Source: Candidatus Poribacteria bacterium (GTDB lineage Bacteria > Poribacteria > WGA-4E > PCPOR2b). Taken from it: a DNA stretch of 64,000 bases. The notes below the pieces were generated by a model that was not told the origin of the DNA, did no database searches, and saw nothing but the letters and a program-made list of their open reading frames with translations. The stretch's first letter is position 1. Each line of letters opens with the position of its first letter. Below, piece by piece: positions 1,334-25,404 of the stretch. Where the stretch lies: assembly GCA_965218095.1 (NCBI GenBank), contig OZ244587.1, positions 4,288,001-4,352,000 of the forward strand. Reading direction: 5' to 3'. The position numbers were made by a program, and so were the translations under genes.

Positions 1334-2818
1334 ATGAGTGCCAAGCAAACTTCAGGAGCTTTCATGACTTCGTTGATTCTTCACGGAATCGCGGCGTTCA
1401 TTGCGGGTGTATATCTCGTCACCCAGACACAGCAGTTCAAAGATCTCGTTGGGGCTGAAGTCCTTCAAGCGAAGGAACCCCCCAAACCCCAGGTGCGTAA
1501 ACCGGTCATCAAGCCTGTTGTCAAGCCAACGGTTCCGACCACGAGTACCGTCGTTGTTGAGCAAGTTCAAGTTCAGCCAAGAGTAACGACGGCGGCTGTT
1601 GTTCGTCCCACCTCTGTCCAACCGCAGACGGTGCTTGAATTCTCGAATAAAGTTGTTAAGCTCAATGCACCCATCAATCCCAATATTCCGAAGGTAGTCA
1701 ACCCCAATGTTCCGGTACCGCAGGTGGTGACGCACGCTGATCTGCCTGTTTCCGATGCGCCAGGTGCGCTGGCATTTTCCGCTCCCGTTGCGACAGCTCC
1801 AAGCGCTGCGCCGGCGAACATCGGTCGTGGTATTGGCGGTATCGTGCAGGTAAAGGTTGCTTTCGAGCGTCCGGCGGGGCTTGCGATGGTCGAGCATGTC
1901 GGGGCAACCCGCGACGCCTTGAGTGATGTGGTTGAGAACATCACACTGGGTAATGTTGAAGTGCCGCCGCTGCCGCGTGGTGAACCGGGTGGTACAGTGA
2001 TTGGCAAAGGTCGTGACATTCGTGGGGTGTTTCGCTTCACGCGCGTGCGCCACGCCCTTTCTGACTGGTGGGCGGATGCGTCTTCACTGAACGCATGGAC
2101 CAAGTGGCTCAATGAACGGACGAAGATCAAAACCGACATGAACGTTGAAGGCGGCGCGCTCAAATTGACCGACGCCAACCTGCAGAAATGCCCGTTGGTC
2201 TTCATGACAGGACACGATCCCGCAATGGCCAAGGGACACAACTTGTTTAATCGTGGCGGCGGTGGCGGCGGTCAAAAGATTGAGAGCAAACTTCCCGAGG
2301 CAGACGCCGCTGCATTGCGAAGATATCTTGTTGAAAAAGGTGGTTTCCTCGTCTTTGACGACTGCGGTGTGAACGCGGCGTCCCAAGGCATGCCCCGCTT
2401 GTTCCTCGCTCAGATGCGATATGTGATGCCGGAATATCAGGTGATGCGTATTCCCAACGACCACGAAGTCTACAATAACTTCTATGAAATGGGTGGACCG
2501 CCGATTGGGTTTGATATCTTCTGGTTTGGCAGCCGCCCGCCCAAGCGGAATTTCCTTGAAGGTGTTTCGATAGGTGATAATCTTTCGGTCCTGCTTGTTC
2601 GTCGTGACTATATGTGTTCGATGGAGTCGGTTAGCTTGCCCACCCGTTCCATTAAATACTCCCCCGGTGTCTATCGTTTCATGACCAATGTTGCGGTTTA
2701 CGCGCTGACACACGGTTCAATTTCAGATTACTCCGGTTATGTGCCAGAAGATCGGATAGCAAAGCAGAATCTGCCGACCAGGGCGCCAGAAGCTGCGAAA
2801 ATTGGGGCTGTTGAATAA
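1334..2818 (+). CDS. DUF4159-domain protein with TonB-like N-terminal anchor and Pro/Val-rich linker
   Basis: TM with SxxxH (SLILH), Pro-rich linker, C-terminal FMTGH / GGFLVFDDC / IPNDHEVY motifs. Confidence 0.8.
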   Translation: MSAKQTSGAFMTSLILHGIAAFIAGVYLVTQTQQFKDLVGAEVLQAKEPPKPQVRKPVIKPVVKPTVPTTSTVVVEQVQVQPRVTTAAVVRPTSVQPQTVLEFSNKVVKLNAPINPNIPKVVNPNVPVPQVVTHADLPVSDAPGALAFSAPVATAPSAAPANIGRGIGGIVQVKVAFERPAGLAMVEHVGATRDALSDVVENITLGNVEVPPLPRGEPGGTVIGKGRDIRGVFRFTRVRHALSDWWADASSLNAWTKWLNERTKIKTDMNVEGGALKLTDANLQKCPLVFMTGHDPAMAKGHNLFNRGGGGGGQKIESKLPEADAAALRRYLVEKGGFLVFDDCGVNAASQGMPRLFLAQMRYVMPEYQVMRIPNDHEVYNNFYEMGGPPIGFDIFWFGSRPPKRNFLEGVSIGDNLSVLLVRRDYMCSMESVSLPTRSIKYSPGVYRFMTNVAVYALTHGSISDYSGYVPEDRIAKQNLPTRAPEAAKIGAVE

Positions 2819-2852
2819 AGTCTGCTGATTCGGACAAGCCCTTGAATCAATC

Positions 2853-2895: not shown

Positions 2896-2970
2896 ATTAT
2901 CCTTGAAAAGGTTCCAAACCCTTTCAAAGTTACGGCAGCGCATCTGTCCAAAAACTTCTGCCTTGAAGCA

Positions 2971-9778: not shown

Positions 9779-10111
9779 ATGGCAGGAGATGCTTTAGGTT
9801 TAGTTGAAACTAGAGGGTTCGTCGCAAGCGTCGAAGCGGCTGATGCAATGGTCAAAGCAGCAAATGTTCAGCTCATCGGGTATGAAAAGATCGGTGGGGG
9901 ATATGTGACGGTCATGGTCCGTGGCGACGTTGGGGCTGTCAAAGCGGCGACAGATGTTGGTGCAGAAGCAGCCGCGCGGGTCGGTGAAGTGATATCCGTC
10001 CATGTCATCCCAAGGCCGCATGCAGAAGTTGAATCGATTTTATCCTCTCAGGGACAGTCCGAGAACAATACATTATCTATTGAAGTCGCCGGGGAGGAAT
10101 CATTAAGTTAA
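9779..10111 (+). CDS. Bacterial microcompartment hexameric shell protein (BMC-H, PduA/EutM-like)
   Basis: ALGLVETRG...[11 protein letters not shown]...[11 protein letters not shown]...HVIPRPH. Confidence 0.95.
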
Positions 10112-10123
10112 GGAAAATAGCGC

Positions 10124-10831
10124 ATGAATGACAAGGCACTCATTGAGCTGGTCACTCATAAAGTGCTTGAGCAATTACAACAGGGTGAGCCCTGTGGTGG
10201 CTGCGCTTTACGGATGTGCGCCGCCGGGCACCGTGCATGCGACGCCGCCGTCCAACAAAAAAAGATTCCTATCGGTGTTTCGGCAAGGCATGCCCATGTC
10301 ACCCAGAAACACCTGGAAATTCTCTACGGTAAGGGGTATCAATTGACTGTTCACGCCCCTTTATACCAACCCGCCGCTTTTGCGGCGAAAGAAACGCTAA
10401 CCATCGTTGGGCGACGTATGCGGGCTATCGAAGGGGTTCGTATCCTCGGTCCCGTGAGGGACTATTCTCAGGTCGAATTGGCACGTACCGATGCGATCCG
10501 TTTGGGACTCGATCTACCGATTCGTGATTCAGGTGATATTGCCGGTTCAGCGCCGATTGTGTTAATTGGTCCCAAGGGTTCTGTTCATTTAAAAGAAGGC
10601 GCAATCTGTGCGACACGGCATATTCACATGACCCCGCAAGATGCGGAAAGCTTAGGCGTACGTAAAGGGGATCTGTTGAAAATTCGTATTCCCGGCGAAC
10701 GGGCATTGACCTTTGAAAACATTCGCCCGAAAATATCACCGAGCTATGTGCTGCAGATGCACCTGGATACGGATGATTCCAACGCTGCTGGTCTACGTGG
10801 AGGAGAAGGCGTTGAGCTGCTGAAAGATTAG
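10124..10831 (+). CDS. pduL: Phosphate propanoyl/acetyltransferase PduL with N-terminal encapsulation peptide
   Basis: GVSARHAH, RILGPVR, RHIHM and MHLDTDD motifs. Confidence 0.92.
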   Translation: MNDKALIELVTHKVLEQLQQGEPCGGCALRMCAAGHRACDAAVQQKKIPIGVSARHAHVTQKHLEILYGKGYQLTVHAPLYQPAAFAAKETLTIVGRRMRAIEGVRILGPVRDYSQVELARTDAIRLGLDLPIRDSGDIAGSAPIVLIGPKGSVHLKEGAICATRHIHMTPQDAESLGVRKGDLLKIRIPGERALTFENIRPKISPSYVLQMHLDTDDSNAAGLRGGEGVELLKD

Positions 10832-10841
10832 GGGAATCCAA

Positions 10842-11606
10842 GTGGCAATCAGTTCAGAAATCATTCGACGAATCGAGGAGGAAGTCAAGAAAGTCCTCAC
10901 ACAACGGGGAATTGCTTCAGCATCCTCCCCATCAGATCAGCGTATTCTGGCGATATTTGATGCTGCTCAAATTGATCTCGCTCGTCCATTGCAGCAGCTT
11001 GACAGGTGCATTCAACACGGCTATGTCGTCACGGCGATTTTGTCAGATCTTGCTGCCAGGCTTTTGGACATATCCCGCATTCGTTCTGTATGCGGAAACG
11101 AACGTGTTTTTGTATCCAGCGAAATTACGAACCTTCAGTCTTTCACTAAAGATTTCTTCTCCTCAATTGTTATCCTTATTTTATCTTACCCGATGGCAGC
11201 CAAACTCACCCTGGGAATGGCAGATACACCGTGTACTTACCTCATTTTTCAAGCGATGCTTCGCAGAGATAGAATCATCGCAACGTCTGATGCGTTTGAA
11301 ATCTTAGCTGAATCTGAGAGCATCTCTGAGATTTCAAAGCTCGGACAAAATTACATCAAAACCCTTTCAAACTTTGGGATTCAATTTGTGACCATGGATC
11401 GGCTCGGTGAAACAATTTTAAGCGACGATCCTATGAGTTTTAGCTCGGTGGATTCAAGGCATGGGAAAAACGTGATCAGCGCCTCGGTGATTGCCAACCT
11501 TACGCCGGGTGTGCGCGAATTTGTGTACTCGAATCCGGCGATTATCACGCCGCTTGCACATGATTTGGCAGTCCAAAAGGGCATCCGACTCGTGGCAAAG
11601 GATTAA
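10842..11606 (+). CDS. BMC-associated flavoprotein-like protein with encapsulation peptide
   Basis: N-terminal amphipathic helix EIIRRIEEEVKKVL; AAKLTLGMADT; C-terminal IITPLAHD motif. Confidence 0.65.
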   Translation: MAISSEIIRRIEEEVKKVLTQRGIASASSPSDQRILAIFDAAQIDLARPLQQLDRCIQHGYVVTAILSDLAARLLDISRIRSVCGNERVFVSSEITNLQSFTKDFFSSIVILILSYPMAAKLTLGMADTPCTYLIFQAMLRRDRIIATSDAFEILAESESISEISKLGQNYIKTLSNFGIQFVTMDRLGETILSDDPMSFSSVDSRHGKNVISASVIANLTPGVREFVYSNPAIITPLAHDLAVQKGIRLVAKD

Positions 11607-11757
11607 AATCAGCGAACTTATGAATTCTTTTACGTTTCACGTATCCCGCAAGCAGGTATCACTTTTGCTACAGCATCGTATCACCGTTGATACATTTGGA
11701 TGCAATCCACGCCAAATCGCTTTATCGTCGTGTATCAATCGCCGATTGGCTCAGTTA

Positions 11758-11773
11758 TGGCATCTAAATTGCT
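11758..11773 (+). promoter_or_regulatory. sigma54 -24/-12 promoter
   Basis: TGGCATCTAAATTGCT, 14/16 identical to the 1212 site. Confidence 0.7.
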
Positions 11774-11922
11774 TACAGTATATATTCTGAGTTATTGGTG
11801 AATAACGCACAATTTCAAGTTCGCTCATGCACAGTCATTACCATGAGCGAACTCCTTACATCATATGAGCGGATGGCTAAAATCAGTTTTGCAAGTAAAT
11901 CACACATTCAGGAGGGTTTGTC

Positions 11923-13530
11923 ATGAAATTCCACATCCAGGTTGTTATTTTACTCGTGCTAACAATCTTCTTCTTGACATTATTAACAAATGTTGCCCAG
12001 GCAGACCATGAATATGATTACCTTTCAGATCGCCTGAGTCGTGAACATCGGGATGCAGGCGATGTTGAGGACTGGATCGAGCGAGGCAATGCGACTGTTA
12101 CCGCAAGCCCTCGTTTTGAAGATGGTATACGCTTGGCGGCGTGGGCAAGCGGATCGGATAAGAAGGGAAACTACGAATTTGCAATAGCCAGTGCGATTTA
12201 TCTCTTTGAAATTCCTCGACAGGCTCAGTACATCGAGATTCTGGTGCGCTACCGAGGGGAACCTCACAAATCGGACTTTGAGGATTATGAGGAAATTGCT
12301 GGTCGCGTTTGGATCCGCAATACCAAACGTGAATATTCCCGCCGGCGCTATGATGACGAGAATGAGGAGGAAACACTATACGGCAATACCTTCGTTTTGC
12401 GCGCAAAGCGCCGATCAGAGACAATAAAAATTGCAACGGCAGGGCATGTCGATAACGATCTACTTGAGATGCACATTGTTGCTGAAGATGGTGAACAGCT
12501 TGGCATAGAGTATATTGATGTTTCAACCTACCGACGACAGCCTGACGTCCGTGTCGTTCATCGTTATGCTCGAGATTATCGGTGGCGCCCCTGGCATAGA
12601 TATACTTATCTATACTTTTACGATGGTCCATTTTACTACTGTACCGATTTGGGTTACTATATTCGATGGAGTTATCCGATTTATGACCATCACTACCTCT
12701 CTATTCGCTACGCTTACGGCGACTACCTCCATCATTACTATCGCCGCTACCCCGATCACTACTATCGTTCCTATTCCAACAATGTGCATGTCCATGTTGA
12801 TAACGCTGTTAAAACGCAACGACGACTCAATCGCTGGACAGCGACACATGAAACCACCCGACGCGAATATACGCGAAGTCGATTGTCAACAACCTCATCA
12901 AAAACGAACAAAGCAAATGTACAGACCCGTGTTCGCTCATTAATTAGAGAAAACCGTCGGGAACCAGTTCTTGCTGATCGAGTTATCCAACGCGCTACTG
13001 TTTCTCGCAAACGGAGACGAATCGATGCAGAAGTTGAACTGAATACGGCAATAAAGGGGCAACGCGATTTCTCACGTTCCATTGATGACGCATCCACACG
13101 ATCCTACCGCGCAACTCAGGAGATACTAAAACACAAGCGGTATTCATCTGGCCGAAGGGATATGCGATCAAGGACAGAATCCCGTCTCTACCCCTACGAT
13201 CGTTTTCAGCTTTCTACAAAACAGAAGCGTTATTCATCTGACCAGGAGGATACCCGATCAAATGCTGAACGTCGTGCACGTCTCTATAATCGTTCGCGAT
13301 CTTCGGCAAGTCGACCGAGTGCAGCGCCTTCACGCAGCCAATCTCCAGGTTTAAGCAGCGGTACAAACAAACGCAAGCACTCATCTTCTTCCTCCTCACA
13401 CCGCCAAAAATCAACAACCCCGCAGGCACCGCAGGCAAGCTCAAGTTCATCCAGCCAGAGTGACGATGACGAAGAAAAAGATCGCAACCGCAATACCACA
13501 AGGACACAAAAACGTAAGCGAAGAAATTAG
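11923..13530 (+). CDS. Secreted hypothetical protein with a Tyr/His-rich segment and an Arg/Ser-rich disordered tail
   Basis: Signal peptide ending AQA; RBS GGAGG; own terminator. Confidence 0.75.
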   Translation: MKFHIQVVILLVLTIFFLTLLTNVAQADHEYDYLSDRLSREHRDAGDVEDWIERGNATVTASPRFEDGIRLAAWASGSDKKGNYEFAIASAIYLFEIPRQAQYIEILVRYRGEPHKSDFEDYEEIAGRVWIRNTKREYSRRRYDDENEEETLYGNTFVLRAKRRSETIKIATAGHVDNDLLEMHIVAEDGEQLGIEYIDVSTYRRQPDVRVVHRYARDYRWRPWHRYTYLYFYDGPFYYCTDLGYYIRWSYPIYDHHYLSIRYAYGDYLHHYYRRYPDHYYRSYSNNVHVHVDNAVKTQRRLNRWTATHETTRREYTRSRLSTTSSKTNKANVQTRVRSLIRENRREPVLADRVIQRATVSRKRRRIDAEVELNTAIKGQRDFSRSIDDASTRSYRATQEILKHKRYSSGRRDMRSRTESRLYPYDRFQLSTKQKRYSSDQEDTRSNAERRARLYNRSRSSASRPSAAPSRSQSPGLSSGTNKRKHSSSSSSHRQKSTTPQAPQASSSSSSQSDDDEEKDRNRNTTRTQKRKRRN

Positions 13531-13550: not shown

Positions 13551-13588
13551 AAAACAGCTAAAGAGAATTTCTCTTTAGCTGTTTTTTT
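13551..13588 (+). terminator. Intrinsic terminator
   Basis: AAAACAGCTAAAGAGA-att-TCTCTTTAGCTGTTTTTTT. Confidence 0.9.
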
Positions 13589-13637: not shown

Positions 13638-13651
13638 AACCTGAGTTGCTA

Positions 13652-14349
13652 GGTTCTGTTGACATTTGAGTATAAGGTTGTGGCATAATAGAAGAATGAT
13701 GCCAATAACCTTACCCGATGACCAATGGAAAAAGATATACTCGTTTCTTCTAACTTGTCCCAACATCTATGTTGGCAACGAAGCGACAACACGCCGCTTT
13801 ATCGAAACTGTTCTCTGGGCGACCCGTAGCGGGGCTCAATGGCGGATTCTGCCAGACACCTATGGTAAATCGAACACCCTCTACAAGCGGTTTGCTCGGT
13901 GGTGCGACAAAGGGGTCTTCACACAGATGCACCACCACTTCGCCGCCGACCCCGATATCGAGTCGCTTATTGTGGACAGTACAATCATTCGAGCGCACCC
14001 GTCTGCGGCGGGTGCCGAAAAAAAAGGGTGGCACTGAAAACCAAGCGTTAGGTCGGTCTCGCGGGGGATTCAGTACAAAAATTCACATCACCGTTGACGG
14101 CCTGGGTAATCCACTAAGAATTCATCTGACACCCGGTCAAAGAAACGACATAGCGGAAGCAGAAGCGTTGATACTTGGATATAAAAGCGAGTATGTGATT
14201 GGAGACAAGGGATATGACTCCGACAATTTTATCGCGGTTATTGAGGCGAATGGAGCGATTGCGGTGATACCGCCAAAAAGTCATCGTGTGGATCAAAGAG
14301 ATTACGACAAACATCTGTACAAAGAGAGACATCTGGTTGAATGTTTCAT
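13652..14349 (+). mobile_element. IS5-family (IS427-like) copy 1, 3'-truncated by copy 2
   Basis: TIR GGTTCTGTTGACATTT; orfA 13696-14037 and orfB with [13 protein letters not shown] / GDKGYD. Confidence 0.92.
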
Positions 14350-14351
14350 TA

Positions 14352-15172
14352 GGTTCTGTTGACATTTGAGTATAAGGTTGTGGCATAATAGAAGAATGAC
14401 GCCAATAACCTTACCTGATGAACAATGGAATAAGATATACCGGTTTCTTCTAAGCTGTCCCACCATCTATGTTGGCGACGAAGCTGCTACACGCCGCTTC
14501 GTCGAAGCGGTTCTCTGAGTGACTCGTAGCGGGGCTCAATGGAGACTTCTACCAGACACCTATGGCAAATGGAACACCCTCTACAAGCGTTTTGCTCGAT
14601 GGTGCGACAAAGGTATCTTCACACAGATGCACCCCCACTTCGCCTCTGACCCCGATATCGAGTCGCTTATTGTGGACAGTACCATCTGCCGCGCTCACCC
14701 GTCTGCGGCGGGCGCCTTAAAAAAAACGGTGGGACTGAAAACCAAGCATTAGGTCGGTCTCGGGGCGGTTTCAGTACAAAAATTCACATCACAGTTGACG
14801 GACTAGGCAATCCGCTAAGAATTCATCTGACACCCGGTCAGAGACATGACATAACTGAGGCGGAAGGGTTGATAATCGGATATAACAGTGAATATGTGAT
14901 TGGAGACTAAGGGGTACGATTCGGACGCTTTTATCGCGGTTATTGAGGCAAATGGAGCGATTGCGGTGATACCGCCAAAAAGTCATCGTGTTGACCAAAG
15001 AACGTATGACAAACACTTATACAAAGAAAGACATCGGGTTAAATGTTTCATCAACAAGATAAAATGGTATCGTCGTATCTTCTCTCGGTTTGAGAAGCTA
15101 GCTGTCCGTTATTTTGGATTTCTCAGCTTTGTCTCCACTCTTATATGGCTCCCTTGAAATGTCAACAGAACC
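14352..15172 (+). mobile_element. IS5-family copy 2, degenerate
   Basis: Both TIRs; TGA at 14516-14518 and a frameshift near 14908. Confidence 0.92.
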
Positions 15173-15218
15173 TAGCAACTTGGGTTAGTATATCTTTCTT
15201 AAGGAGAGGTATAAGCAT

Positions 15219-15770
15219 TTGGCAAGATCTCAAGTGAAGTTATTTGTAATGACGCTATTGATTTCTGTTTTGTGCTTACTTTTTTTGGGGCAAGTCAGTT
15301 CGGCACAGTCAGACGAAGATCTTCACCTTGTTTCACCAATTGGTGCTGTTGCGCGTTCTGCTATCCTGCCTGGTTGGGGACAGTTCTATGCGCATAGCCG
15401 CTTTCAAGGCACTTCTTCCATGATTGGGACAAGCGGGCTTCTTATTGGTGCTTTGATTGCTCACCAATCCTTTCAAGATGTTTATAATAACGCGTATGTT
15501 CCGATAGCTCTAAACGCCCCGGATTCTCCAGAAGCCGCTTTCCAATACAATCGAGCGAATCAACGTTTTAAGCTTCGGCAGTTTTTCCTTTTTGCGGTGG
15601 TCGGTGTGTGGGCGTACAGTGTTATTGATTCCTACGTTGGCGCGAATTTGTACAACGCAACAACAAAAGCCAATCAACTCATCGACGATGCAAAACGGAT
15701 CGAAAAATTGAGTGTGCAACTTGAGGTAACTCCAACCCAACTTCATCTTGGTATTGTCAAATTCTTTTGA
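15219..15770 (+). CDS. DUF5683-like membrane/secreted protein
   Basis: Signal peptide; AVARSAILPGWGQFY and WAYSVIDSY motifs. Confidence 0.7.
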   Translation: MARSQVKLFVMTLLISVLCLLFLGQVSSAQSDEDLHLVSPIGAVARSAILPGWGQFYAHSRFQGTSSMIGTSGLLIGALIAHQSFQDVYNNAYVPIALNAPDSPEAAFQYNRANQRFKLRQFFLFAVVGVWAYSVIDSYVGANLYNATTKANQLIDDAKRIEKLSVQLEVTPTQLHLGIVKFF

Positions 15771-15812
15771 AAGGCTAGTGAACACAGCTTGGTTTATGGA
15801 GGTGTTTCATCC

Positions 15813-16391
15813 ATGTTAAAGATGTTTGCCAAAACAGCCGGCTTTTTGCTAATTTTGAGTTTTCTTTCAAATTGTGGAGATGTTCAGAATTTCAATACGC
15901 CCAAACAAGGAGAGACGATAGCAATCAATCGGGTTTTGAAAAATTGGCGCGAGGGTTATCAGAATGAAGATATCGAAATGTATATGAGTGCCTTCTGGGA
16001 AGAAGGATTCCTTTACACTTCGGATATGGGAACAGATAACGATCAAACAGATGACCTTGTTTTCGATGATATTCGAGACGAAAGAGATGCTGCGATTCGC
16101 GTTTTTAATAGATTCCAGGATATCGACATCGAGCTTTCTGAACCACCGGACGTGCAATTTTTGGGAGATCGGACACGAGCAGAGGTCAGAAACCATTATC
16201 GAATCGAAGGGTTTGTTGCCGACGGTGAATCTCTCGACGGAGGATTTACAGGATGGTTCGCAGAAGGAGATAATGTATTTACCCTTGAGCTCAGGACGAA
16301 CAGCAAGACAGGGAAGAAAGAATGGCGCATCACTGAGTGGCTTGATGAAGCGTTTAGCATAGAAGAGATCGAGGCTTCCAATAACCTCTAA
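15813..16391 (+). CDS. Acidic lipoprotein with probable SnoaL/NTF2-like fold
   Basis: Lipobox-like LSNC; WREGYQNEDIEMYMSAF and C-terminal WRITEW. Confidence 0.65.
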   Translation: MLKMFAKTAGFLLILSFLSNCGDVQNFNTPKQGETIAINRVLKNWREGYQNEDIEMYMSAFWEEGFLYTSDMGTDNDQTDDLVFDDIRDERDAAIRVFNRFQDIDIELSEPPDVQFLGDRTRAEVRNHYRIEGFVADGESLDGGFTGWFAEGDNVFTLELRTNSKTGKKEWRITEWLDEAFSIEEIEASNNL

Positions 16392-16496
16392 TTTTTCGGT
16401 CTTCAACACAAGCGTTGCTGGCAGGAATTCCATCCCGTCGGCAACTGGCCTTTCTTTGCTTATACTTGTCAACGGCATAAGTTGTGCTTCTCGGTT

Positions 16497-16560
16497 GTCA
16501 TCTTGAGCGAAGCGCAAAGATTCTCCGTGCTGAGATTTTTGTGCTTCGTTCAGATCGAAC
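16497..16560. repeat. Degenerate REP-like palindromic element
   Basis: GTCATCTTGAGCGAAGC...GCTTCGTTCAGAT. Confidence 0.5.
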
Positions 16561-16599
16561 ATATTGTTTCTTATTGCACCAACGAAGGGAGTAGCGGTT

Positions 16600-17950
16600 T
16601 CTTTGATTAATTCACCGCCAAGCAGAGGCAGCGCCAGGTAATTACTCCCTGGCTGATCTCTGTTTTTCTCCATCTGGTACTTGTGATTATCGTAGCATTG
16701 ACAATCAAGAATCAGATCGTGGAGATTGACGCCATCATCATTGAGTGAGTCGAATTGCCAGCGCAGTCGATGCATAAAGTCGAAAAACCGCTCGTCAATC
16801 GCATTCAGCCTAAAGTGGTGCTCAATCGATCTCTGAGACTGAGAAATCAGCCTAAACTCCACATCTCTTCGCCACCACAGATTGCAGAGATCGCTCGTGA
16901 ATCGCTAACACCCATTCGGCGCGATGTCGACTTTTCTCCAAAATTGCCGGACACCATCACGGCGCCGGTGATGACCGCCGCTAAAGCGTCAGCAGGTCGA
17001 CGTGATTTCGTTCTCGCATCGTCTACAGTGTCCTCGCCTGATGTCAGAACCGACGGAGGAATATTGACCAATCGTCTCCCTGCTCCGGGCCGGGGAAAGC
17101 CGCAATCAAATGCTATTGCTTCGATTGTTAAATCGACAGATGCAACCGATTCCGCGGATCTCTCCGCGGATCGTTTTACGAATCTCATCATGGTTCCCGA
17201 AAACAAACTAGGGGCAGTCCTCGTTGGTGAAAGAATGGATGTCCAAGGGCATATTTGGCTTAAATATTCGCTTTCCGATTGGTGGCAGGATCCGACAGCA
17301 ATACCGAGCTTCATGAAGTGGCTTGCTGAACATACACGTCTTCGCGCCGACATGAAATTTGCGGGGGGGCTTCGCATGACTGATTCGCGTATTCTCGACG
17401 CCCCCATTATTTTCATGACGGGGCACGACAAGGACATTGTTGTTGGGCGCAGTCTCGCTAAAGGTGGGCCATTGACCGATTCGTTCTCGGCAGAGGAGCG
17501 GATGGCTTTGCGGAAATACATCGTTGAACGGGGCGGGATGCTCTTTTTCGACGATTGTAGGTTTAATGGATTGTTCGCCGCTCAGGTTGCTGATGAACTT
17601 CAACAGATATTTCCCGAGTATCCACTTGAAAATATCCCGCACAGCCATGAAATTTACCAGATCTACTACTAGCTTCCCATTCCCCCAACCGGCGGTGATG
17701 TCTTTTGGGGGCTGAGAATAATCCGAAGGCTTCCAAATTCAAATATCAAAAAGGTATCACGATTGGACATCGGCTAGCTGTGATTTACAACCGCAAGGAC
17801 TATATGTGTGCGATGGAAACGATGGAGATTCAAAGCCGGATGATGTTGAGGTTGCGCCGATCGACGGATGTGCATCGGTTCATGACGAATCTGCTCGTCT
17901 ATGCGATGAAGCACGGTGGGAATACGGATAGATCTGCTTACAAATCCTAG
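16600..17950 (+). pseudogene. Second TonB-anchor/DUF4159 paralogue, disrupted
   Basis: TM WLISVFLHLVLV; stops at 16746 (TGA) and 17670 (TAG); frameshift near 17710; similar to the 1334 protein (SDWW, FMTGHD, FFDDC, DYMC, RFMTN). Confidence 0.8.
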
Positions 17951-18204
17951 TACAGGAAAATGAACCATCTCCCAGATTTTGTTATCAGCTTGAGTTTTTT
18001 ACCGATTTGGGTTCTGCGTTTATCGTGAGTTTGGATTGACCCAAAATTTGCATGGCTTCCATCTTGATACTGCTTATCCAATCGCTATTTAGCCTGCCCA
18101 TACCTTCCGCCAGCCTTTTTCAAAATGTCCTGTCCGGCGATGTTGACCACAACGAAGTGGAAACGGTCGGCCGACGTTTCTTCTCAGAATCTATGTTAGC
18201 ATTA

Positions 18205-19024
18205 GGTTCTGTTGACATTTGAGTATAAGGTTGTGGCATAATAGAAGAATGATGCCAATAACCTTACCCGATGACCAATGGAAAAAGATATACTCGTTTC
18301 TTCTAACTTGTCCCAACATCTATGTTGGCAACGAAGCAACAACACGCCGCTTTATCGAAGCTGTTCTCTGGGCGACCCATAGCGGTGCTCAATGGAGACT
18401 TCTGCCAGACACCTATGGTAAATCGAACACCCTCTATAAGCGTTTTGCTCGGTGGTGCGACAAAGGGGGCTTCACACAGATCCACCACCACTTCGCCGCC
18501 GACCCCGATATCGAGTCGCTTATTGTGGACAGTACAATCATTCGAGCGCACCCGTCTGCGGCGGGTGCCGAAAAAAAAGGGTGGCACTGAAAACCAAGCG
18601 TTAGGTCGCTCTCGCGGGGGATTCAGTACAAAAATTCACATCACAGTTGACGGCCTGGGTAATCCACTAAGAATACATCTGACGCCCGGTCAAAGAAACG
18701 ACATAGCGGAAGCAGAAGCGTTTATACTTGGATATAAAAGTGAGTATGTGATTGGAGACAAGGGATATGACTCCGACAATTTTATCGCGGTTATTGAGGC
18801 GAATGGAGCGATTGCGGTGATACCGCCAAAAAGTCATCGTGTGGATCAAAGAGATTACGACAAACATCTGTACAAAGAGAGACATCTGGTTGAATGTTTC
18901 ATTAACAAGATAAAATGGTATCGCCGCATCTTCTCTCGGTTCGAGAAGTTAGCTATCCGTTATTTTGGATTTCTCAGCTTTGTCGCCACTCTTATTATGG
19001 CTCCCTTGAAATGTCAACAGAACC
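18205..19024 (+). mobile_element. IS5-family copy 3
   Basis: Both TIRs, TA duplication, orfA/orfB; 1-nt insertion near the 3' end of orfB. Confidence 0.93.
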
Positions 19025-19181
19025 TAGTACAAGATCGATTAATCCATTTACGGACGACCATTTTTCGTGCAGAAGATAATCTTTACTCAGATTAATCCAC
19101 GATATAGAAGAGATTAATTGTGATCTCATTTGATCTGAAAGGAGTGTCGTCTCAATGTGAAGAATTTAATAGAAAAAACAC

Positions 19182-19210
19182 TTGACAGAAAATTGCAGAA
19201 GTGGTATCTT
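19182..19210 (+). promoter_or_regulatory. sigma70 promoter upstream of the large barrel gene
   Basis: TTGACA-17-TATCTT with AT-rich UP element. Confidence 0.6.
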
Positions 19211-19270
19211 AAAGGTTACTTTTTTTGAGGTATAAATTTATTAAAAAAAAGCATTGACCAAATACAGTTA

Positions 19271-19395
19271 GGAGTTACGCACTTCAAATTGAACAAACCG
19301 TATTATGCCTGCATTTCGAATCCTGAATCCAGAACAAGATGCAAGATACAGGATGCAGACATAGCTTGAGTCTGTAGAATTAGTTGCGTAAGTCC
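19271..19395. mobile_element. MITE-like element
   Basis: TA|GGAGTTACGCA...TGCGTAAGTCC|TA; a further end GGACTTACGCA at 53081. Confidence 0.55.
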
Positions 19396-19631
19396 TATAC
19401 AGGTTAAACCTGAGTTTTTTCGCCTTTTTAATGAATCCTTTTTAAAGGAGGTTACGATATGTTGTACTACTGACGCAAGTTGAAATAGGTGCGGGATCGA
19501 TAAATGGTCAAAAATTTGACAATTGCAGTCAATTCCCAAATTGTTCAACTTGATTCTTGATGAACCTGATTACGAAAGTTTTATACCTTAACTTTTACAT
19601 CAAGTAATTTATGATTTCCTCAAGGAGGCAA

Positions 19632-22600
19632 ATGAAAATAATGCAGGTTTCAAAACACTCACCTGATGTGTTGTTTATTGTAGCCGGGTTAATAGGCTGT
19701 TTCGTGCTTTATGGATGCGCCACAACCAGCCTTGGTCCACAGGAACCGCTTTTACCAACAGTCGAAGGGCAAGCGCATTTTTCGGCTCGCTTCCAATTAG
19801 AAGAAGAACCACAATTCTTCTATGACTTGTTCGGTAAAGAACTCCTCGAAGGTAATGAAGTTTACAATTACCGTGAACAGAAACAGTTTGATAGGAACGG
19901 AGAACTGATTGTGGGTTGGACCGGTCAGCTTGATAGTGAAAGGTTCTCCGCACAGTTAGACCGTCAGATCCTAACTGAAGATAACTTCCGTGGTAGATTT
20001 ACACAGTTCGCAATCGGGGACAACATGCGTATTAAACCCGCAACGCTATTTCCGAATCGATATATCATCCACAAGACGGAATTCGATGGTTTCCGGTGGG
20101 ATATTTCTTTCTCACAAGAACGTCACCTTTTTACCTTGTTGAATTCGCGTATTTCTAACCCGGTACAGTTGTCTGATGCAGCAGCGAACCTTGCACCAAC
20201 GCTTGGTCGCCGGAACGGTTTGAGCGACGATGTCGGTCTTCGTCATATTGAGAATGCCCGCTTGATCGGATTCCGCGCGCAAGGGTTGCTGGGAGATGTG
20301 TTCCGCGTCGGATTCACCTACGTCAATCTCCACAAAGAACACCCAGAAAGAGTTGAGAATCCTCTGTTCGGCGGCACGGTGGCGAATACGCCTCCGGAGC
20401 GTATCGTTATTGTCTTCCGCGACGATTCACCGGAAGATAATCACGTTGACATCTTAGAGCACGACCTTGAGAGACCCGAACACGTAAGATTTATTCAGGG
20501 CGGGGTCGGCGTTGCAGTTAAGGGGCTAAAGGTGCATCTTGTCACACAACCCCTTGGCGGTTTTCCTGAGCAGGGTCCTGACCGTCCGCCGGGACGTGAG
20601 CGCACGAGAACGATTCCAGTTTTTCTCGACGCTATTACTGCCGTAGAGGGTAGCAATGACCCCCGTGAGACCCCTGATGGCTACAAAATTGTCGAGGGGT
20701 TCGATAAAATGCAGTACGTATTAGACTTTAACGATCCTGACCCGCTTAGTACTGCGGACGAACCGATCGACCCCCGAACAGTAAAGTCAATCGAGTTTGA
20801 GATGGACGTTGCAGGCGACTATAATATCGCTTTCATCGGATTTAGCGAAGCAAACAAGTCAGAGGATCCGCTAGGGGCAGAATGGATTAAAACCGAGGAC
20901 GGTCATATCGAAATGCCTTACCGTGATGTGATTGAAGCCCCCGGCAATTATGGTCAATCAGACCACTATACGGATAACAGGGCAGCGCTTCGCGATGCCC
21001 CAAGTAGATGGAAGGATGAAGGGAAACCGCGTAAGATTCGGTATCGCTATGGTGCGGCACGTGCTGGAGTGATGTATGGTCTTGATCTTGAAGGAACTCT
21101 GTTTAATACCTTTGTCCGTGCGCATTACTCGATTAATGGCAAATTTAAGCAGTATCCAACCATTCCCAAAGACCAAGTTGGTTTCAGCCGGACGAATCCT
21201 GAAATTGAAGGGGCTAGCATCACCATAGATGAGCGCGAAACCCTGGACGATGGGGTTACACCTAACCCTACCTTCCGAGTCGCCCTGGATGCCAATGGTA
21301 TCCCGACATACTCTGTAACGGAGGGAGAAAGATTTGAAGCCAAGTTAAATGGGAATCCGGATAGTGACGGAGAGATGGGCCGTGAAACAGCGTGGTTTAT
21401 TAACCTCAAGCAGCGTTTCGGCAAGATCTTCCTCGAAGAGACTGTCTACCACATTGATCCGGGTTACACGACAACCTATCATAACTTCGGTGCAAACGAC
21501 TCAAGGGATGCGACCTATTCTCTTGAACGAACTCCTGAATCTGGTGCGGAAATCCTTCCGTATGATCAAATCGATTATCAACTTGTCGAAGACGATGATG
21601 ACGACGACGACTGGCCAGATAGCATCGATTTTGACGGCGTCCTGCCGCAAGCCGATGACCGTGACCAGAATGGCATCCTCGATTTCCAAGAAGACTTCCT
21701 CATCTTTGAGGCAGATCCACCGGTTTTTGAAGATCTCCTTGACCTGAATAACAACGGGATTGTTGATTCATTAGAAGATGATTTTGAACCGCAATATGAG
21801 TACGGTATCGACCGCGAAGGATACCATATCGCCGCTAGCTACGACTTACTCGAGAACTTGACCGTCAAACTGGGCTGGTTAAACGAAAGCGAGATTTCCA
21901 GCCGGCGGAAAAATAATTCAAAATACATTCATCTTATTTATCAGCGCGACATTCCAGATTTTGGAACGATTCTGTTCCAGAATCGTTTGCTCCGCGTTGA
22001 GGATGATATTCCGGAGTACTCGATTACCTTGCGCCCCGGTGAACTGGCTACCGTGCAACAAAGTGATGCACTTGACTTCTTCAACGCGCGAGTGAATCTG
22101 ACAAGCATCCAGTTTCTTTACACTGCGATTCCAAACTTGCAACTTGAAACGAAGCTCCTCGTTGACTGGCGGAAGCAGTTGGAACCGGATCCCGAGGAAG
22201 CGATTGCGAAGGATTTTCCGCAAGATGACATAACATTAGAGAAGGATGATCGCGTCGATTTCATGGTGCCGGACGAGCAGGTGCGTGCGGATGGTGAGAA
22301 GCGCGCATCCCCGTTCTATCCGGATCATGGGCTTAACCCACTAGATCCAGAAGATACCGGCTTAATCTATAATCCAGATAACTGGATACCCCGCCGTTAT
22401 ACGGAAAAGACTGTCCGTAACCAGGTCACCATTATCAAAGCTAGATATGAAATTCCATTAGGCGATTTGCCAGGGGTTGACAAAATTGGTGAAGATTTAA
22501 CACTGACACCGATGGTTAAATATATCTGGACTCGGGCCTTCGATCGCGCCGCTGAGAAGATTGGCGAGGTACTTAATCCCACTCTATTTGTTCCTGACTC

Positions 22601-22961
22601 TCCGGAGGTAGTCGAATATCTGCGATTTAACCGGCGGAGTCGTGAGGATGTTATGGGCGTTCGTTTGGATTATCAGTTCACCCAAAGAGTCAATATCCTC
22701 GGTGGTTTCCAGTACCGTAAATTTACCAACCGAGATCAGAATATCAAAAGCTATCTAACCACTCCAGCGTTTGTGGATGCAGATCTTCCGATCCTGTTCC
22801 GTCCAGACATACGGACACGTATCTTTGAAGTTCAGGCAATCAACCGTGGTGAATGGCTTGGTTTCAATATTGTCATTCTCGCCGGTTTCAGAAGAACCAC
22901 AATCTTGCTTGAGCACACGACAAGTAATACGACGTTCGTTCGAGCAATGATGGGATTCTAA
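19632..22961 (+). CDS. Large putative outer-membrane beta-barrel lipoprotein with Ca-binding DxDxDG-like loops
   Basis: Lipobox LYGC; amphipathic strands; DDDDDDDWPD, DRDQNGILD and DLNNNGIVD; terminal strand ending in Phe; RBS AAGGAGG. Confidence 0.7.
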   Translation: MKIMQVSKHSPDVLFIVAGLIGCFVLYGCATTSLGPQEPLLPTVEGQAHFSARFQLEEEPQFFYDLFGKELLEGNEVYNYREQKQFDRNGELIVGWTGQLDSERFSAQLDRQILTEDNFRGRFTQFAIGDNMRIKPATLFPNRYIIHKTEFDGFRWDISFSQERHLFTLLNSRISNPVQLSDAAANLAPTLGRRNGLSDDVGLRHIENARLIGFRAQGLLGDVFRVGFTYVNLHKEHPERVENPLFGGTVANTPPERIVIVFRDDSPEDNHVDILEHDLERPEHVRFIQGGVGVAVKGLKVHLVTQPLGGFPEQGPDRPPGRERTRTIPVFLDAITAVEGSNDPRETPDGYKIVEGFDKMQYVLDFNDPDPLSTADEPIDPRTVKSIEFEMDVAGDYNIAFIGFSEANKSEDPLGAEWIKTEDGHIEMPYRDVIEAPGNYGQSDHYTDNRAALRDAPSRWKDEGKPRKIRYRYGAARAGVMYGLDLEGTLFNTFVRAHYSINGKFKQYPTIPKDQVGFSRTNPEIEGASITIDERETLDDGVTPNPTFRVALDANGIPTYSVTEGERFEAKLNGNPDSDGEMGRETAWFINLKQRFGKIFLEETVYHIDPGYTTTYHNFGANDSRDATYSLERTPESGAEILPYDQIDYQLVEDDDDDDDWPDSIDFDGVLPQADDRDQNGILDFQEDFLIFEADPPVFEDLLDLNNNGIVDSLEDDFEPQYEYGIDREGYHIAASYDLLENLTVKLGWLNESEISSRRKNNSKYIHLIYQRDIPDFGTILFQNRLLRVEDDIPEYSITLRPGELATVQQSDALDFFNARVNLTSIQFLYTAIPNLQLETKLLVDWRKQLEPDPEEAIAKDFPQDDITLEKDDRVDFMVPDEQVRADGEKRASPFYPDHGLNPLDPEDTGLIYNPDNWIPRRYTEKTVRNQVTIIKARYEIPLGDLPGVDKIGEDLTLTPMVKYIWTRAFDRAAEKIGEVLNPTLFVPDSPEVVEYLRFNRRSREDVMGVRLDYQFTQRVNILGGFQYRKFTNRDQNIKSYLTTPAFVDADLPILFRPDIRTRIFEVQAINRGEWLGFNIVILAGFRRTTILLEHTTSNTTFVRAMMGF

Positions 22962-22962
22962 C

Positions 22963-23004
22963 AAAAAAAAGAGCACCGAGCATTTTTATGCTTGGTGCTC
23001 TTTT
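22963..23004 (+). terminator. Intrinsic terminator
   Basis: AAAAGAGCACCGAGCA-tttta-TGCTTGGTGCTCTTTT. Confidence 0.85.
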
Positions 23005-23310
23005 AGATTTTACCGAAACTTTCAAAAAACGAAGGTGTTTATAAAGCTAGGATTTCGCATTGTATTCATATACGACAGCGGGCTTTGGTCGCAGTTCTGA
23101 ACGAAAGTTCAGGCTCAAAGTTCAAGTCCGTTGAACCGGGCTAAGGTCTCTACGTTTAGTTAGCTTGAGTAGAGATGTAACTCTTACGTCTCTACGTCTC
23201 GAATTGAAAGTTGAAGTGAAGTTTCGTTGTAGCACTAAGGAGATGTCTGATTCAGACACGCTCTTCAGAATTTTTAACCTGAGATGTCAGAACTCCAATA
23301 GGAGGAAAAT

Positions 23311-24297
23311 ATGAAACGCGTGAGTTTAACCTTAATCTTATCTAGCCTATTGATTGTTTACGGCGCGGTTGCATTTGCCCAGGATACAATCGGTACGGTG
23401 CGTGGCAACGTCGTAGATACCACAACGGCACAAACCCCAATTGCTGATGTCCGAGTCGTTATTGTTGGCACTGATGGCTCAGAGAAGGAAGGTATGACAG
23501 ATGACGCTGGTGAATATGAAATATCCGGTGTGTCCCCGGGTCGTTATCTGCTTAGTATTTACAAAAACGCCTACAAGGAACGAATGGGTAAACCTGTCAC
23601 CGTTGTCGCTGGAGGCGATCACTACGTGCCGATGAAAATGACCAAAAAGGACACTATCGTCAGTTTCTTCCAAAAGTTTGGGCTTGTTTTCTGGCCGCTT
23701 CTCCTCTGTTCTGTGGCTGCGTTGACCTTCATTATTGAACGTCTCTTTACTTTTGTAAGGAGCCGCTCCAAGCTCGGAACAGAACAGTTCATGGCAAATA
23801 TCACCGATTCTCTGCGTAATGATAACATTATGGAAGCGGTTTCAACCTGCGAAGAGGCAGGCGGTCCGCTCGCAAACGTTCTGAAAGCAGGCTTGTTGAG
23901 ATATAGCCAGGCCCAGATTGAAGAGCGGGAGATTACGAAAGAAGAGGTACAGGAAGCGATTCAAGAAGCGGGCCTCCTTGAAATTCCTGAACTTGAACGA
24001 AACACACCTGTGATTAGTACAGTCGCGGTTATCTCTCCTTTGTTTGGTCTCCTCGGTACTGTGATGGGTATGATTAGCGCATTTACCACGATTGCGTTAG
24101 AAGGCACTGGTGACCCACAGGCGCTTGCCGGTGGTATTTCTCAAGCATTGCTAACTACTGCTGGTGGCTTAACTGTTGCCATTCCTTGCATTATTTTCGC
24201 CCAGATCTTTGAGAGCTGGGTCAACCGATTTGTGCTTGAGATTGAGCAGGTTTCGACGGAAATCGTAAACCAACTGATCCTTGGTCAATCAACATAA
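23311..24297 (+). CDS. exbB: MotA/TolQ/ExbB proton channel with N-terminal carboxypeptidase-regulatory-like domain
   Basis: Signal peptide AFA; GTVRGNVVD...PGRY domain; PLFGLLGTVMGMI and ALLTTAGGL. Confidence 0.9.
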   Translation: MKRVSLTLILSSLLIVYGAVAFAQDTIGTVRGNVVDTTTAQTPIADVRVVIVGTDGSEKEGMTDDAGEYEISGVSPGRYLLSIYKNAYKERMGKPVTVVAGGDHYVPMKMTKKDTIVSFFQKFGLVFWPLLLCSVAALTFIIERLFTFVRSRSKLGTEQFMANITDSLRNDNIMEAVSTCEEAGGPLANVLKAGLLRYSQAQIEEREITKEEVQEAIQEAGLLEIPELERNTPVISTVAVISPLFGLLGTVMGMISAFTTIALEGTGDPQALAGGISQALLTTAGGLTVAIPCIIFAQIFESWVNRFVLEIEQVSTEIVNQLILGQST

Positions 24298-24368
24298 AGA
24301 CTTCACTGCTCTCCCTGCCAACTCATAAAGTGGCAGAGAGAGCTATCATGAACAGGAGGTAGTCGAAG

Positions 24369-24815
24369 ATGGCAGATCCGAGAGAACCCGGTGGCGTGAC
24401 ACGGCTTGCCGCTAGGGATAGGAGAGGGCCTAAACTCGATATGGCTCCGATGATTGACTGTGTGTTTCTGCTTCTGATTTTCTTCATGGTTTCGACCAGT
24501 TTCGCACCGATGCCTGGTATCCGTGTTCAATTACCCCCTCCGGGCAAACCGAGCCCCAATAAACCGAAGGGGCTCATTGTAAGGATTGCTAACCCTGAAG
24601 GGGCTCAGAAATTTGGCACAATGATCTTGAGTGACGAGATTGTCAACATCAACCAGATGTTTAGCGAATTTATCCATGCTCCTGAAGAGATCAAGAATAT
24701 GCTAATCATCCAGTCAGAACGGGATGTTTTGCATGAGCAGATTATTAGTGTGATGGATATTGCCAAGCAAGCAGGTATAGACAAAGTTGGCTTTGCAGTA
24801 GTGGCAAGGGAATAA
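24369..24815 (+). CDS. exbD: ExbD/TolR family protein
   Basis: APMIDCVFLLLIFFMV with conserved Asp; VMDIAKQAG. Confidence 0.9.
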   Translation: MADPREPGGVTRLAARDRRGPKLDMAPMIDCVFLLLIFFMVSTSFAPMPGIRVQLPPPGKPSPNKPKGLIVRIANPEGAQKFGTMILSDEIVNINQMFSEFIHAPEEIKNMLIIQSERDVLHEQIISVMDIAKQAGIDKVGFAVVARE

Positions 24816-24829
24816 CAAAGGAGGATACG

Positions 24830-25252
24830 ATGGCTATGCAATTTAGGCGGATAAAAGGTGGGGAGCGAGAGCAAGCCCTGATGATGGAACCAATGATTGA
24901 TTGTGTGTTTTTGCTATTGATCTTCTTTATGGTATCGGCGGTTATGCGCGTTCCTCCACCTTTTACAATTACTCTGCCAGAGTCAGCTACGAAGCACGAT
25001 TTCCCTCGAAAAAAATTCAACCTCTATATCAGCCCAGATGGAAGGGTTTCCTTTGATGATCTGGAAATGCTTACGCTAGACGACATGGAAATGTTCCTGT
25101 CAGCAAAAGAGAGTCAAATTAGTACACTCATTATCAAGGCTGATAGACGCGCCAAACACGGCGTCGTTATTGATGTCATGGAACGTGCGAAACGTCGATT
25201 TAGTAAACCAGAAGGTCAGGAGATTGCTTTAGCAGTTTCAGAGGACGAGTAA
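24830..25252 (+). CDS. exbD: ExbD/TolR family protein (second)
   Basis: PMIDCVFLLLIFFMV; IIKADRRAKHG. Confidence 0.9.
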   Translation: MAMQFRRIKGGEREQALMMEPMIDCVFLLLIFFMVSAVMRVPPPFTITLPESATKHDFPRKKFNLYISPDGRVSFDDLEMLTLDDMEMFLSAKESQISTLIIKADRRAKHGVVIDVMERAKRRFSKPEGQEIALAVSEDE

Positions 25253-25286: not shown

Positions 25287-25313
25287 AAAGGCAGCCAGTG
25301 TGCTGCCTTTTTT
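25287..25313 (+). terminator. Intrinsic terminator
   Basis: AAAGGCAGC-cagtgt-GCTGCCTTTTTT. Confidence 0.8.
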
Positions 25314-25404
25314 ATTTTCCTTGCAATCCTGCCTGATACAAGGAGACAGGTATGACTCATGTGAAAAATAAGTGCAGAATAACGAAGATAATAGGACATT
25401 TCAG

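What the first reader, a model, noticed from the sequence alone, without database searches (positions are those of the whole stretch)
15219..25252. Candidate non-canonical Ton-like envelope machine: ExbB-ExbD-ExbD, giant lipidated barrel and TonB-anchored DUF4159
Seen: a co-directional run of a DUF5683-like protein, an NTF2-like lipoprotein, a TonB-anchor/DUF4159 gene (broken), a 1,110-aa barrel-like lipoprotein, exbB and two exbD genes. No TonB_C or TolA/TolB/Pal gene is present in the window. Known: ExbBD/TolQR motors pass proton-motive force to a partner through a TM carrying the SxxxH motif. Inference: the DUF4159 proteins are the transducers and the large barrel is the energised outer-membrane partner, giving an undescribed import, export or assembly system. 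A terminator and an IS separate the genes, so this is a neighbourhood rather than one operon.
Basis: partly seen in the sequence, partly recalled or inferred. Interest (0 to 1): 0.75.

Follow-up and report, generated by a model that had tools for sequence, protein, structure and literature searches.

The report
Poribacteria Ton motor beside giant barrel
In a group of sponge-dwelling bacteria, the genes for a proton-driven envelope motor sit right after the gene for a very large, heavily expressed, unstudied outer-membrane barrel protein, but the proposed linker gene next to them is a dead recent insertion, so a dedicated new machine is possible but not shown.

Summary
The genes are there as described; the source is Candidatus Poribacteria, and the block is the published 'BMC-A region'. 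Barrel-exbB-exbD-exbD order holds in 40 of 53 GTDB loci; the rest are one truncated contig and a 12-member paralog clade without the motor. DUF4159 occurs in 0 of 53 loci: here it is a decayed insertion in front of a wrecked wzz/wzc gene, the usual occupant (29 of 36). In strain 3G this is the only annotated ExbBD, alongside 6 TonB_C and 5 TonB-dependent receptor genes elsewhere, so it is most likely the shared motor, not a TonB-less one. Two things look undescribed: a lipidated ~26-strand barrel, weakly SlpA-like, with no plug, ranked 53rd of 4,769 transcripts in 3G; and TonB-like proteins (SxxxH helix, Pro-rich linker) capped by DUF4159, with one DUF4159 gene ranked 2nd. That the motor drives the barrel is unproven: a terminator-like hairpin separates them in 40 of 40 loci. 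Boldest open reading: an SprA-independent export or anchoring route for T9SS-type tail proteins (about 12%).

The parts
9782..13530 (+). Upstream half of the conserved BMC-A block: BMC shell protein, PduL, 254-aa Eut-type hypothetical, 535-aa secreted protein with Tyr-rich middle and Arg/Ser-rich tail
   Evidence: Pfam; NCBIfam weak TIGR02536; found in 34, 35, 33 and 36 of 53 loci
13649..15175 (+). Tandem IS5-type copies between the 535-aa gene and DUF5683, after a strong hairpin at 13551-13585
   Evidence: Repeats; hairpin z -6.7
15219..15770 (+). DUF5683 membrane protein, conserved member of the block
   Evidence: Pfam E 2.6e-11; 36 of 53 loci
15813..16391 (+). Lipoprotein, possibly NTF2-like, conserved member of the block
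   Evidence: Cds6_C E 0.078; Cys-Gly-Asp after a hydrophobic stretch in the 34 homologues listed; 36 of 53 loci
16611..17950 (+). Pseudogene of an SxxxH-helix / Pro-rich linker / DUF4159 protein; lineage-specific insertion
   Evidence: no DUF4159 hit in 53 loci; no DNA match of this stretch in L001-L008
17977..19083 (+). Remnant of the wzz/wzc-like gene that normally fills this slot (pieces 17977-18201 and 19021-19083)
   Evidence: tblastn E down to 1e-15 with 29 of the 30 slot ORFs; slot gene annotated
18203..19026 (+). IS5-type element inserted in the wzz/wzc remnant
   Evidence: Terminal inverted repeats; DDE domains
19182..19210 (+). Sigma70-like promoter candidate for the barrel gene
   Evidence: 10 of 12; overall count no higher than shuffles; stretch conserved in L001-L008
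19632..22961 (+). 1,109-aa lipidated outer-membrane barrel, about 25-26 strands, with an inserted beta domain (237-474) and a conserved Asp-rich loop (609-727)
   Evidence: AlphaFold; fold searches; strand analysis; lipobox
22967..23004 (+). Terminator-like hairpin between barrel and exbB
   Evidence: -27.5 kcal/mol, z -8.2; hairpin of -15 or better in 40 of 40 loci against 6 of 40 shuffles
23311..24297 (+). ExbB/TolQ with signal peptide and periplasmic CarboxypepD_reg (Ig-like) extension
   Evidence: Pfam; pore threonines T250 and T283 invariant in 24 sequences
24369..24815 (+). ExbD/TolR copy 1
   Evidence: Pfam; transmembrane Asp30 invariant in 24 sequences
24830..25252 (+). ExbD/TolR copy 2, followed by a terminator-like hairpin at 25287-25310
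   Evidence: Pfam; Asp24 invariant in 24 sequences
1334..2818 (+). Intact SxxxH / linker / DUF4159 paralog, not part of the conserved block
   Evidence: Pfam; S13 and H17 invariant in 46 sequences; model
44785..46959 (+). Ordinary TonB-dependent receptor, a likely client of the same motor through a canonical TonB
   Evidence: Plug E 1.4e-7, barrel E 5.5e-15

Best explanation
This is a conserved cluster of core envelope genes, not one dedicated machine. exbB-exbD-exbD encodes the main, probably only, Ton-type proton motor of Poribacteria (shown: genes and conserved pore residues; inferred from known ExbBD motors: 5:2 assembly, ExbD heterodimer). It is shared by transducers encoded elsewhere: canonical TonB_C proteins that open TonB-dependent receptors, and probably a family of TonB-like proteins that dock by an SxxxH helix, cross the periplasm on a Pro-rich linker and end in a DUF4159 domain with an unknown target (shown: layout; inferred: motor binding). 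The 1,109-aa protein is a separately terminated, abundant, lipid-anchored giant barrel whose large loops face outward or fill the pore and probably bind calcium; it most likely acts as the major outer-membrane channel or scaffold, like SlpA but without a cell-wall tether (shown: model; inferred: role). The DUF4159 gene at this spot is a chance insertion that has decayed.
For: DUF4159 in 0 of 53 loci, wzz/wzc in the slot in 29 of 36 and its remnant still visible here. Strain 3G table: 1 exbB, 2 exbD, 6 TonB_C, 5 TonB-dependent receptor, 6 DUF4159 genes; a receptor in this window. Motor genes at 2,062-3,802 FPKM against 914 FPKM summed over the six TonB_C genes, while one DUF4159 gene reaches 26,392, which fits further clients. 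Hairpin after the barrel in 40 of 40 loci; Jahn 2016 reports zero read coverage flanking the three motor genes. Best fold matches SlpA and porins; PF21620 SlpA_C precomputed on 11 of 120 distant relatives. Cytoplasmic BMC and PduL genes are conserved in the same block (34 and 35 of the 36 loci with upstream sequence), so synteny here does not imply one pathway.
Against: Barrel-exbB adjacency is kept in 40 of 40 main-class loci across the whole phylum sample while flanks change, and expression levels match, which is what a functional pair would show. SlpA similarity is weak: Z 14.1, rmsd 9.2 over 422 residues, within about 1 of ordinary porins; the window protein itself has no Pfam hit. Only Ser and His of the SHLS motif are kept and the D-box-like stretch LVGAEVL fits the published pattern only loosely. 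Gene counts come from one single-cell genome annotated in 2016. I could not see the sequence of the hyper-expressed DUF4159 gene, so its SxxxH helix is unverified, and it appears to be first on its contig.
Confidence: 0.5

Rival explanations
1. One reading: the barrel is an energised, loop-gated importer or assembly channel, opened by ExbBDD through SxxxH-DUF4159 transducers encoded elsewhere.
For: 40 of 40 adjacency and matched high expression; highly conserved Asp-rich loop that could fill the lumen (occupancy 0.87 in distant relatives); distant phyla carry several ~30% identical paralogs per genome, as transporter families do (two AB1505 locus tags); vWA-capped transducers as precedent.
Against: No DUF4159 linkage (0 of 53); no N-terminal plug, and the large loops fall on the outer side by strand parity; separate terminator-like hairpin; paralog clade without the motor.
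Confidence: 0.2
2. The barrel is the outer-membrane outlet or surface anchor of a polysaccharide made with the neighbouring Wzz/Wzc co-polymerase, like AlgE, PelB or Wzi.
For: wzz/wzc directly precedes the barrel in 29 of 36 loci; SLBB/Poly_export genes follow exbD in L019 and L045; Wzi and AlgE appear among fold hits at Z about 12.
Against: wzz/wzc is absent in 7 loci and wrecked in this window while the barrel stays intact; in 3G it is expressed 20 times lower, 118 against 2,363 FPKM.
Confidence: 0.13
3. The barrel exports or anchors proteins with a T9SS type A tail in a lineage without SprA, with ExbBDD replacing the GldLM motor.
For: 11 of 12 paralog-clade barrels directly abut a same-strand WD40 gene of a family carrying the T9SS tail (TIGR04183 31.6 bits, cut-off 23), six with gaps of 52-103 nt and no hairpin; 3G lists 40 FlgD_ig rows, a C25 peptidase with the tail and 2 UPF0164 proteins but no SprA_N or PorP; Kamke 2014 found no Por structural genes.
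Against: The paralog clade is one event and tail-bearing genes are common in these genomes; tail motif in 0 of the other 41 loci; about 26 strands with loops is small for folded double propellers (inference); 30-fold higher expression than BamA; absence of SprA rests on an old annotation of one genome.
Confidence: 0.12
4. Published proposal (Jahn 2016): the motor imports vitamin B12 for a propanediol microcompartment encoded in the same block.
For: BMC and PduL synteny; authors localised BMC shell and ExbD at the membrane.
Against: No receptor or TonB in the conserved block; in 3G the motor is the only one annotated and is expressed about ten times above PduL, so it is not BMC-specific.
Confidence: 0.05

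Closest known systems
Poribacteria BMC-A region (Kamke 2014 PMC3909097; Jahn 2016 PMC5087111)
   Same: Same genes in the same order; 3G contig 3.4 is locus L032.
   Different: Here wzz/wzc is wrecked and a DUF4159 pseudogene and IS elements are inserted. In the passages and tables I read, the 3,402-nt gene is only a hypothetical protein.
Ton system ExbB-ExbD-TonB, including long ExbB of Serratia (bioRxiv 2021.04.21.440815)
   Same: MotA_ExbB and ExbD domains, conserved Asp and Thr; periplasmic extension on ExbB.
   Different: Two different ExbDs; Ig-like extension; no adjacent tonB; Gln where E. coli ExbB has Glu176 (position recalled); all NCBIfam equivalog scores below cut-off.
vWA force transducers (Williams-Jones 2025, PMC12204202)
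   Same: SxxxH helix, Pro-rich disordered linker, non-TonB C-terminal domain; motor with a pair of different TolR/ExbD.
   Different: C-terminal domain is DUF4159 (best fold hit Hoch_4089, 4i66, E 1.9e-9, then ThuA-like); genes are not next to the motor.
SlpA/OmpM of Deinococcus-Thermus (PMC9388160; PDB 8agd, 7zgx, 8ae1)
   Same: Very large, abundant barrel with big acidic insertions; top fold hit; partial SlpA_C match in distant relatives.
   Different: No SLH domain or coiled coil; N-terminal lipid anchor instead; probably fewer strands; about 12% identity.
Type IX secretion system
   Same: Tail-bearing cargo and PorU-like and UPF0164 genes occur in Poribacteria; cargo genes abut the paralog barrel.
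   Different: Barrel is half the length of SprA; the motor is ExbBD, not GldLM.

Membership tests
ExbBD/TolQR motor | MotA_ExbB and ExbD domains with conserved transmembrane Asp and pore Thr | tested here: met
ExbBD/TolQR motor | 5:2 assembly and proton-driven activity | not testable with these tools
   Needs structure or assay
Tol-Pal system | tolA, tolB, pal beside tolQR | tested here: not met
   None in the window or among conserved neighbours in 40 loci; 0 TolB_N in the 3G table
TonB/TolA-type transducer (DUF4159 proteins) | N-terminal helix with SxxxH | tested here: met
   118 of 120, the other two N-terminally truncated; S13, H17 invariant. Downstream Leu and Ser of SHLS are not kept
TonB/TolA-type transducer (DUF4159 proteins) | Pro-rich disordered periplasmic linker | tested here: met
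   25 Pro in 180 residues; pLDDT under 50 over 42-237
TonB/TolA-type transducer (DUF4159 proteins) | D-box bound by ExbD | tested here: inconclusive
   LVGAEVL-type stretch at His+21 to +27 fits the published pattern loosely
TonB/TolA-type transducer (DUF4159 proteins) | TonB_C or vWA C-terminal domain | tested here: not met
   DUF4159 instead
TonB/TolA-type transducer (DUF4159 proteins) | Gene next to the motor | tested here: not met
   0 of 53 loci
TonB-dependent transporter (barrel) | N-terminal plug domain before a 22-strand barrel | tested here: not met
   First strands begin at residues 61-70, about 35 after the lipid Cys; no Plug hit
SlpA/OmpM (barrel) | N-terminal SLH domain and coiled coil | tested here: not met
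   Lipoprotein signal and short linker only; no Pfam hit
SlpA/OmpM (barrel) | SlpA-type 28-30 strand barrel | tested here: inconclusive
   Z 14.1, rmsd 9.2, 422 aligned, tied with porins; SlpA_C hit in 11 of 16 scanned proteins, mostly chosen for that label, 1 above cut-off; 25-26 strands counted from DSSP
SlpA/OmpM (barrel) | Homotrimer | not testable with these tools
   Exceeds the complex-prediction size limit
T9SS translocon SprA (barrel) | About 2,300 residues, SprA_N domains | tested here: not met
   1,109 aa, no Pfam or NCBIfam hit
T9SS translocon SprA (barrel) | Handles type A tail cargo | tested here: inconclusive
   Adjacency only, in one clade
LptD or BamA (barrel) | Periplasmic jelly-roll or POTRA domains | tested here: not met
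   No such N-terminal domain in the model; 3G has separate COG1452 and YaeT genes

The most novel reading that the evidence does not exclude
Poribacteria export or surface-anchor their many T9SS-tail proteins without SprA or GldLM: this lipidated giant barrel is the outer-membrane channel, and the neighbouring ExbB-ExbD-ExbD motor drives it through SxxxH-DUF4159 transducers, a Ton-powered protein export route.
Probability: 0.12. Interest if true: 0.9.

Novelty: new variant of a known kind. Interest (0 to 1): 0.55.

Why it matters
Poribacteria are dominant, uncultured sponge symbionts with a poorly known envelope. This pins down two candidates for its main parts: an unnamed family of giant barrels (at least 595 proteins, also in Latescibacterota, Gemmatimonadota and Ignavibacteriales) and DUF4159-capped TonB-like proteins, which would extend the short list of motor-coupled transducers and give DUF4159 a first functional setting. 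It also offers a testable candidate for the export route of T9SS-tail proteins that Kamke 2014 left open. The specific claim of a DUF4159-barrel-motor locus is wrong for the DUF4159 gene.

Tried and rejected
Complex prediction of the two ExbD periplasmic domains with DUF4159-protein residues 26-70 gave no answer (score 0.02, mark 0.32) and is used neither way. Barrel complexes exceed the 1,000-residue limit and were not run. No useful PDB sequence relative for the barrel or the DUF4159 protein (best E 0.083). Atlas: only unnamed clusters, DUF6029 a weak lead at 0.88; nothing for the inserted domain. No plasmid match for a distant barrel or the DUF4159 protein. Cluster look-up for ten distant barrels could not be made. 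The one genome scan returned only the best 53 loci out of 335 confirmed stretches, all Poribacteria or unlabelled, so gene context in other phyla is unchecked; metagenome and viral contigs were closed. LptD, ushers, SprA and TonB-dependent receptors appear in the fold lists only as generic barrel matches. The promoter/terminator scan gave counts no higher than shuffles and missed the barrel hairpin. An IQ-TREE run did not finish; the tree is FastTree only, with long outgroup branches, so no root is claimed. Rejected: RhoGEF label of Jahn 2016 (COG5422), which belongs to the 1,596-nt gene matching the 535-aa low-complexity protein, not the barrel. Rejected: sequencing error as cause of the broken DUF4159 gene, since four lesions lie in 1.3 kb beside an intact 3.3-kb gene.
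Full report
Source and observation. The 1,109-aa protein has 351 relatives among 7,998 scored candidates; the best 120 are 69-82% identical and those with names are Candidatus Poribacteria. All listed genes are present at the stated coordinates. The DUF4159 gene at ~16611-17950 has an SVFLH helix, two in-frame stops, a frameshift and no start codon; read with X at the stops it matches the intact 1334 family in both helix region and domain. No TonB_C, TolA, TolB or Pal was found in 72 window frames, but a TonB-dependent receptor lies at 44785-46959.

The region is published. Kamke 2014 (PMC3909097; passages, supplement hits, Text S1 whole) defined 'BMC group A'. Jahn 2016 (PMC5087111; passages, table rows) found exbB and both exbD highly expressed as their own transcript and proposed B12 import. 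In their table of 4,769 genes of strain 3G, exbB ranks 30 (3,802 FPKM), the exbDs 46 and 64, the barrel gene 53 (2,363 FPKM), and a DUF4159 gene on another contig ranks 2 (26,392 FPKM). The table has 1 exbB, 2 exbD, 6 TonB_C, 5 TonB-dependent receptor and 6 DUF4159 genes. This is one single-cell genome with 2016 annotation, and I did not see the sequence of the rank-2 gene.

Neighbourhood. One GTDB scan gave 53 loci, the best of 335 confirmed stretches. exbB and both exbD follow the barrel in 40 of 53; one locus is a truncated contig and 12 form a paralog clade. Of the 36 loci with upstream sequence, 36 have the 535-aa gene, DUF5683 and the lipoprotein, 35 PduL, 34 the BMC shell. The slot before the barrel holds wzz/wzc in 29 of 36 and nothing in 7. 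DUF4159 was found in 0 of 53. In the window a wzz/wzc remnant survives on both sides of the IS, and the DUF4159 stretch has no counterpart in the eight closest loci, so it is a late insertion that has decayed. A strong hairpin follows the barrel in 40 of 40 motor-linked loci against 6 of 40 shuffles. Because cytoplasmic BMC genes share the synteny, adjacency alone is weak evidence of a shared pathway; against that, barrel-motor adjacency never breaks in the main class.

The barrel. AlphaFold on 98 sequences gave pLDDT 78, pTM 0.82. With the C-terminal Phe taken as periplasmic (established barrel rule), the large loops, including the inserted domain 237-474 and the Asp-rich loop 609-727 (37 acidic, 3 basic residues), face outward or fold into the pore; calcium binding is inferred from DxDxNG-type motifs. 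There is no N-terminal plug. The lipobox is in 53 of 53 loci, while the 68 distant relatives show no convincing one (2 pattern hits). Top fold hits are Deinococcus SlpA (Foldseek E 2.8e-9; Z 14.1, rmsd 9.2, 422 aligned), with porins within about 1 Z. SlpA_C is precomputed on 11 of 120 distant relatives and covers about 90-100 residues matching strands near 470-620. SlpA has pore insertions with metal sites and is thought a scaffold (PMC9388160, passages), but needs SLH and coiled coil, which are absent here. The wider family (274 representatives at E up to 0.001; 595 of 8,000 candidates) includes Latescibacterota, Gemmatimonadota and Ignavibacteriales, with two 31%-identical paralogs under one locus prefix.

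The DUF4159 proteins. 118 of 120 homologues carry SxxxH, invariant in a 46-row alignment. The model, of low overall confidence (pLDDT 46), shows helix, disordered 190-residue linker and an alpha/beta domain matching Hoch_4089; Pfam places DUF4159 in a clan with ThuA and GATase-like entries (PMC4702930, one passage). A D-box-like stretch sits at about the right distance but fits the pattern of PMC10907165 (passages) loosely. Williams-Jones 2025 (PMC12204202; first part, passages and section 8) describe the same layout with vWA and do not contain 'DUF' or 'Poribacter'. DUF4159 occurs in one paper of the library. Searches showed no paper describing the barrel or these transducers; I saw only listings for most hits, and subscription journals are not covered. 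A periplasmic extension on ExbB has precedent in Serratia (bioRxiv 2021.04.21.440815, abstract only).

The export lead. In the paralog clade 11 of 12 barrels abut a same-strand WD40 gene of a family with a T9SS type A tail; the tail motif is in 10 of these 12 loci and 0 of the other 41. 3G lists 40 FlgD_ig rows, a tail-bearing C25 peptidase and two UPF0164 proteins but no SprA_N or PorP. This is one evolutionary event in genomes rich in such genes, so I give it 0.12.

Verdict. Shown: a conserved barrel-motor neighbourhood, a new giant lipidated barrel family, TonB-like DUF4159 proteins, and that the local DUF4159 gene is incidental. Inferred: the motor is shared; DUF4159 proteins are among its clients; the barrel is a major channel or scaffold. 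Not shown: any physical link between motor and barrel. New variant of known kinds; interest 0.55.

Noticed in passing
window 11923-13530: Conserved secreted 535-aa protein: globular N-terminal part, Tyr-rich middle, long Arg/Ser-rich tail; no Pfam hit; 36 of 53 loci; 883 FPKM in 3G, where it was mislabelled RhoGEF-like.
   Followed up: partly
strain 3G gene 2265143785 (Jahn 2016 table): A DUF4159 gene is the second most expressed of 4,769 genes; followed by an ECF sigma factor and four ABC-2 permease genes with low expression. Sequence not seen.
   Followed up: partly
L041-L044, L046-L053: Paralog barrel clade amid arrays of WD40 proteins with T9SS tails, small lipoproteins, LamG and TolB-like propellers.
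   Followed up: yes
window 44785-46959: TonB-dependent receptor without an adjacent tonB.
   Followed up: partly
window 13649-15175, 18203-19026, ~27450-28120, ~50530-51325: Several copies of one IS5-type element, some degraded, one tandem; a different DDE transposase piece at 6573-6923.
   Followed up: partly
window 28109-30891 and 4711-5518: UPF0182 gene in three or more pieces just after an IS; BtpA gene split in two frames. The window holds several decayed genes.
   Followed up: no
window 24308-24343: Stable hairpin between exbB and the first exbD (z -4.8) without a U tail; may stabilise exbB mRNA and help set a 5:1:1 ratio (exbB is the highest of the three in 3G).
   Followed up: partly
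L019:15500-19400, L045:6909-10220: Large SLBB/Poly_export (Wza-like) gene directly after exbD in two deep-branching loci.
   Followed up: partly
window 25372-26742: NtrC-type regulator after exbD, shared only with the seven closest loci; glutamate synthase is the usual neighbour elsewhere.
   Followed up: partly
window 1334-2818: The same 6,350,489-nt contig length is listed for three DUF4159 clusters (P0271, P0273, P0380), suggesting several intact paralogs in this genome.
   Followed up: no
strain 3G gene 2265146261: An OmpA/MotB-domain gene is expressed at 2,032 FPKM, the same level as the motor; a possible cell-wall tether partner.
   Followed up: no
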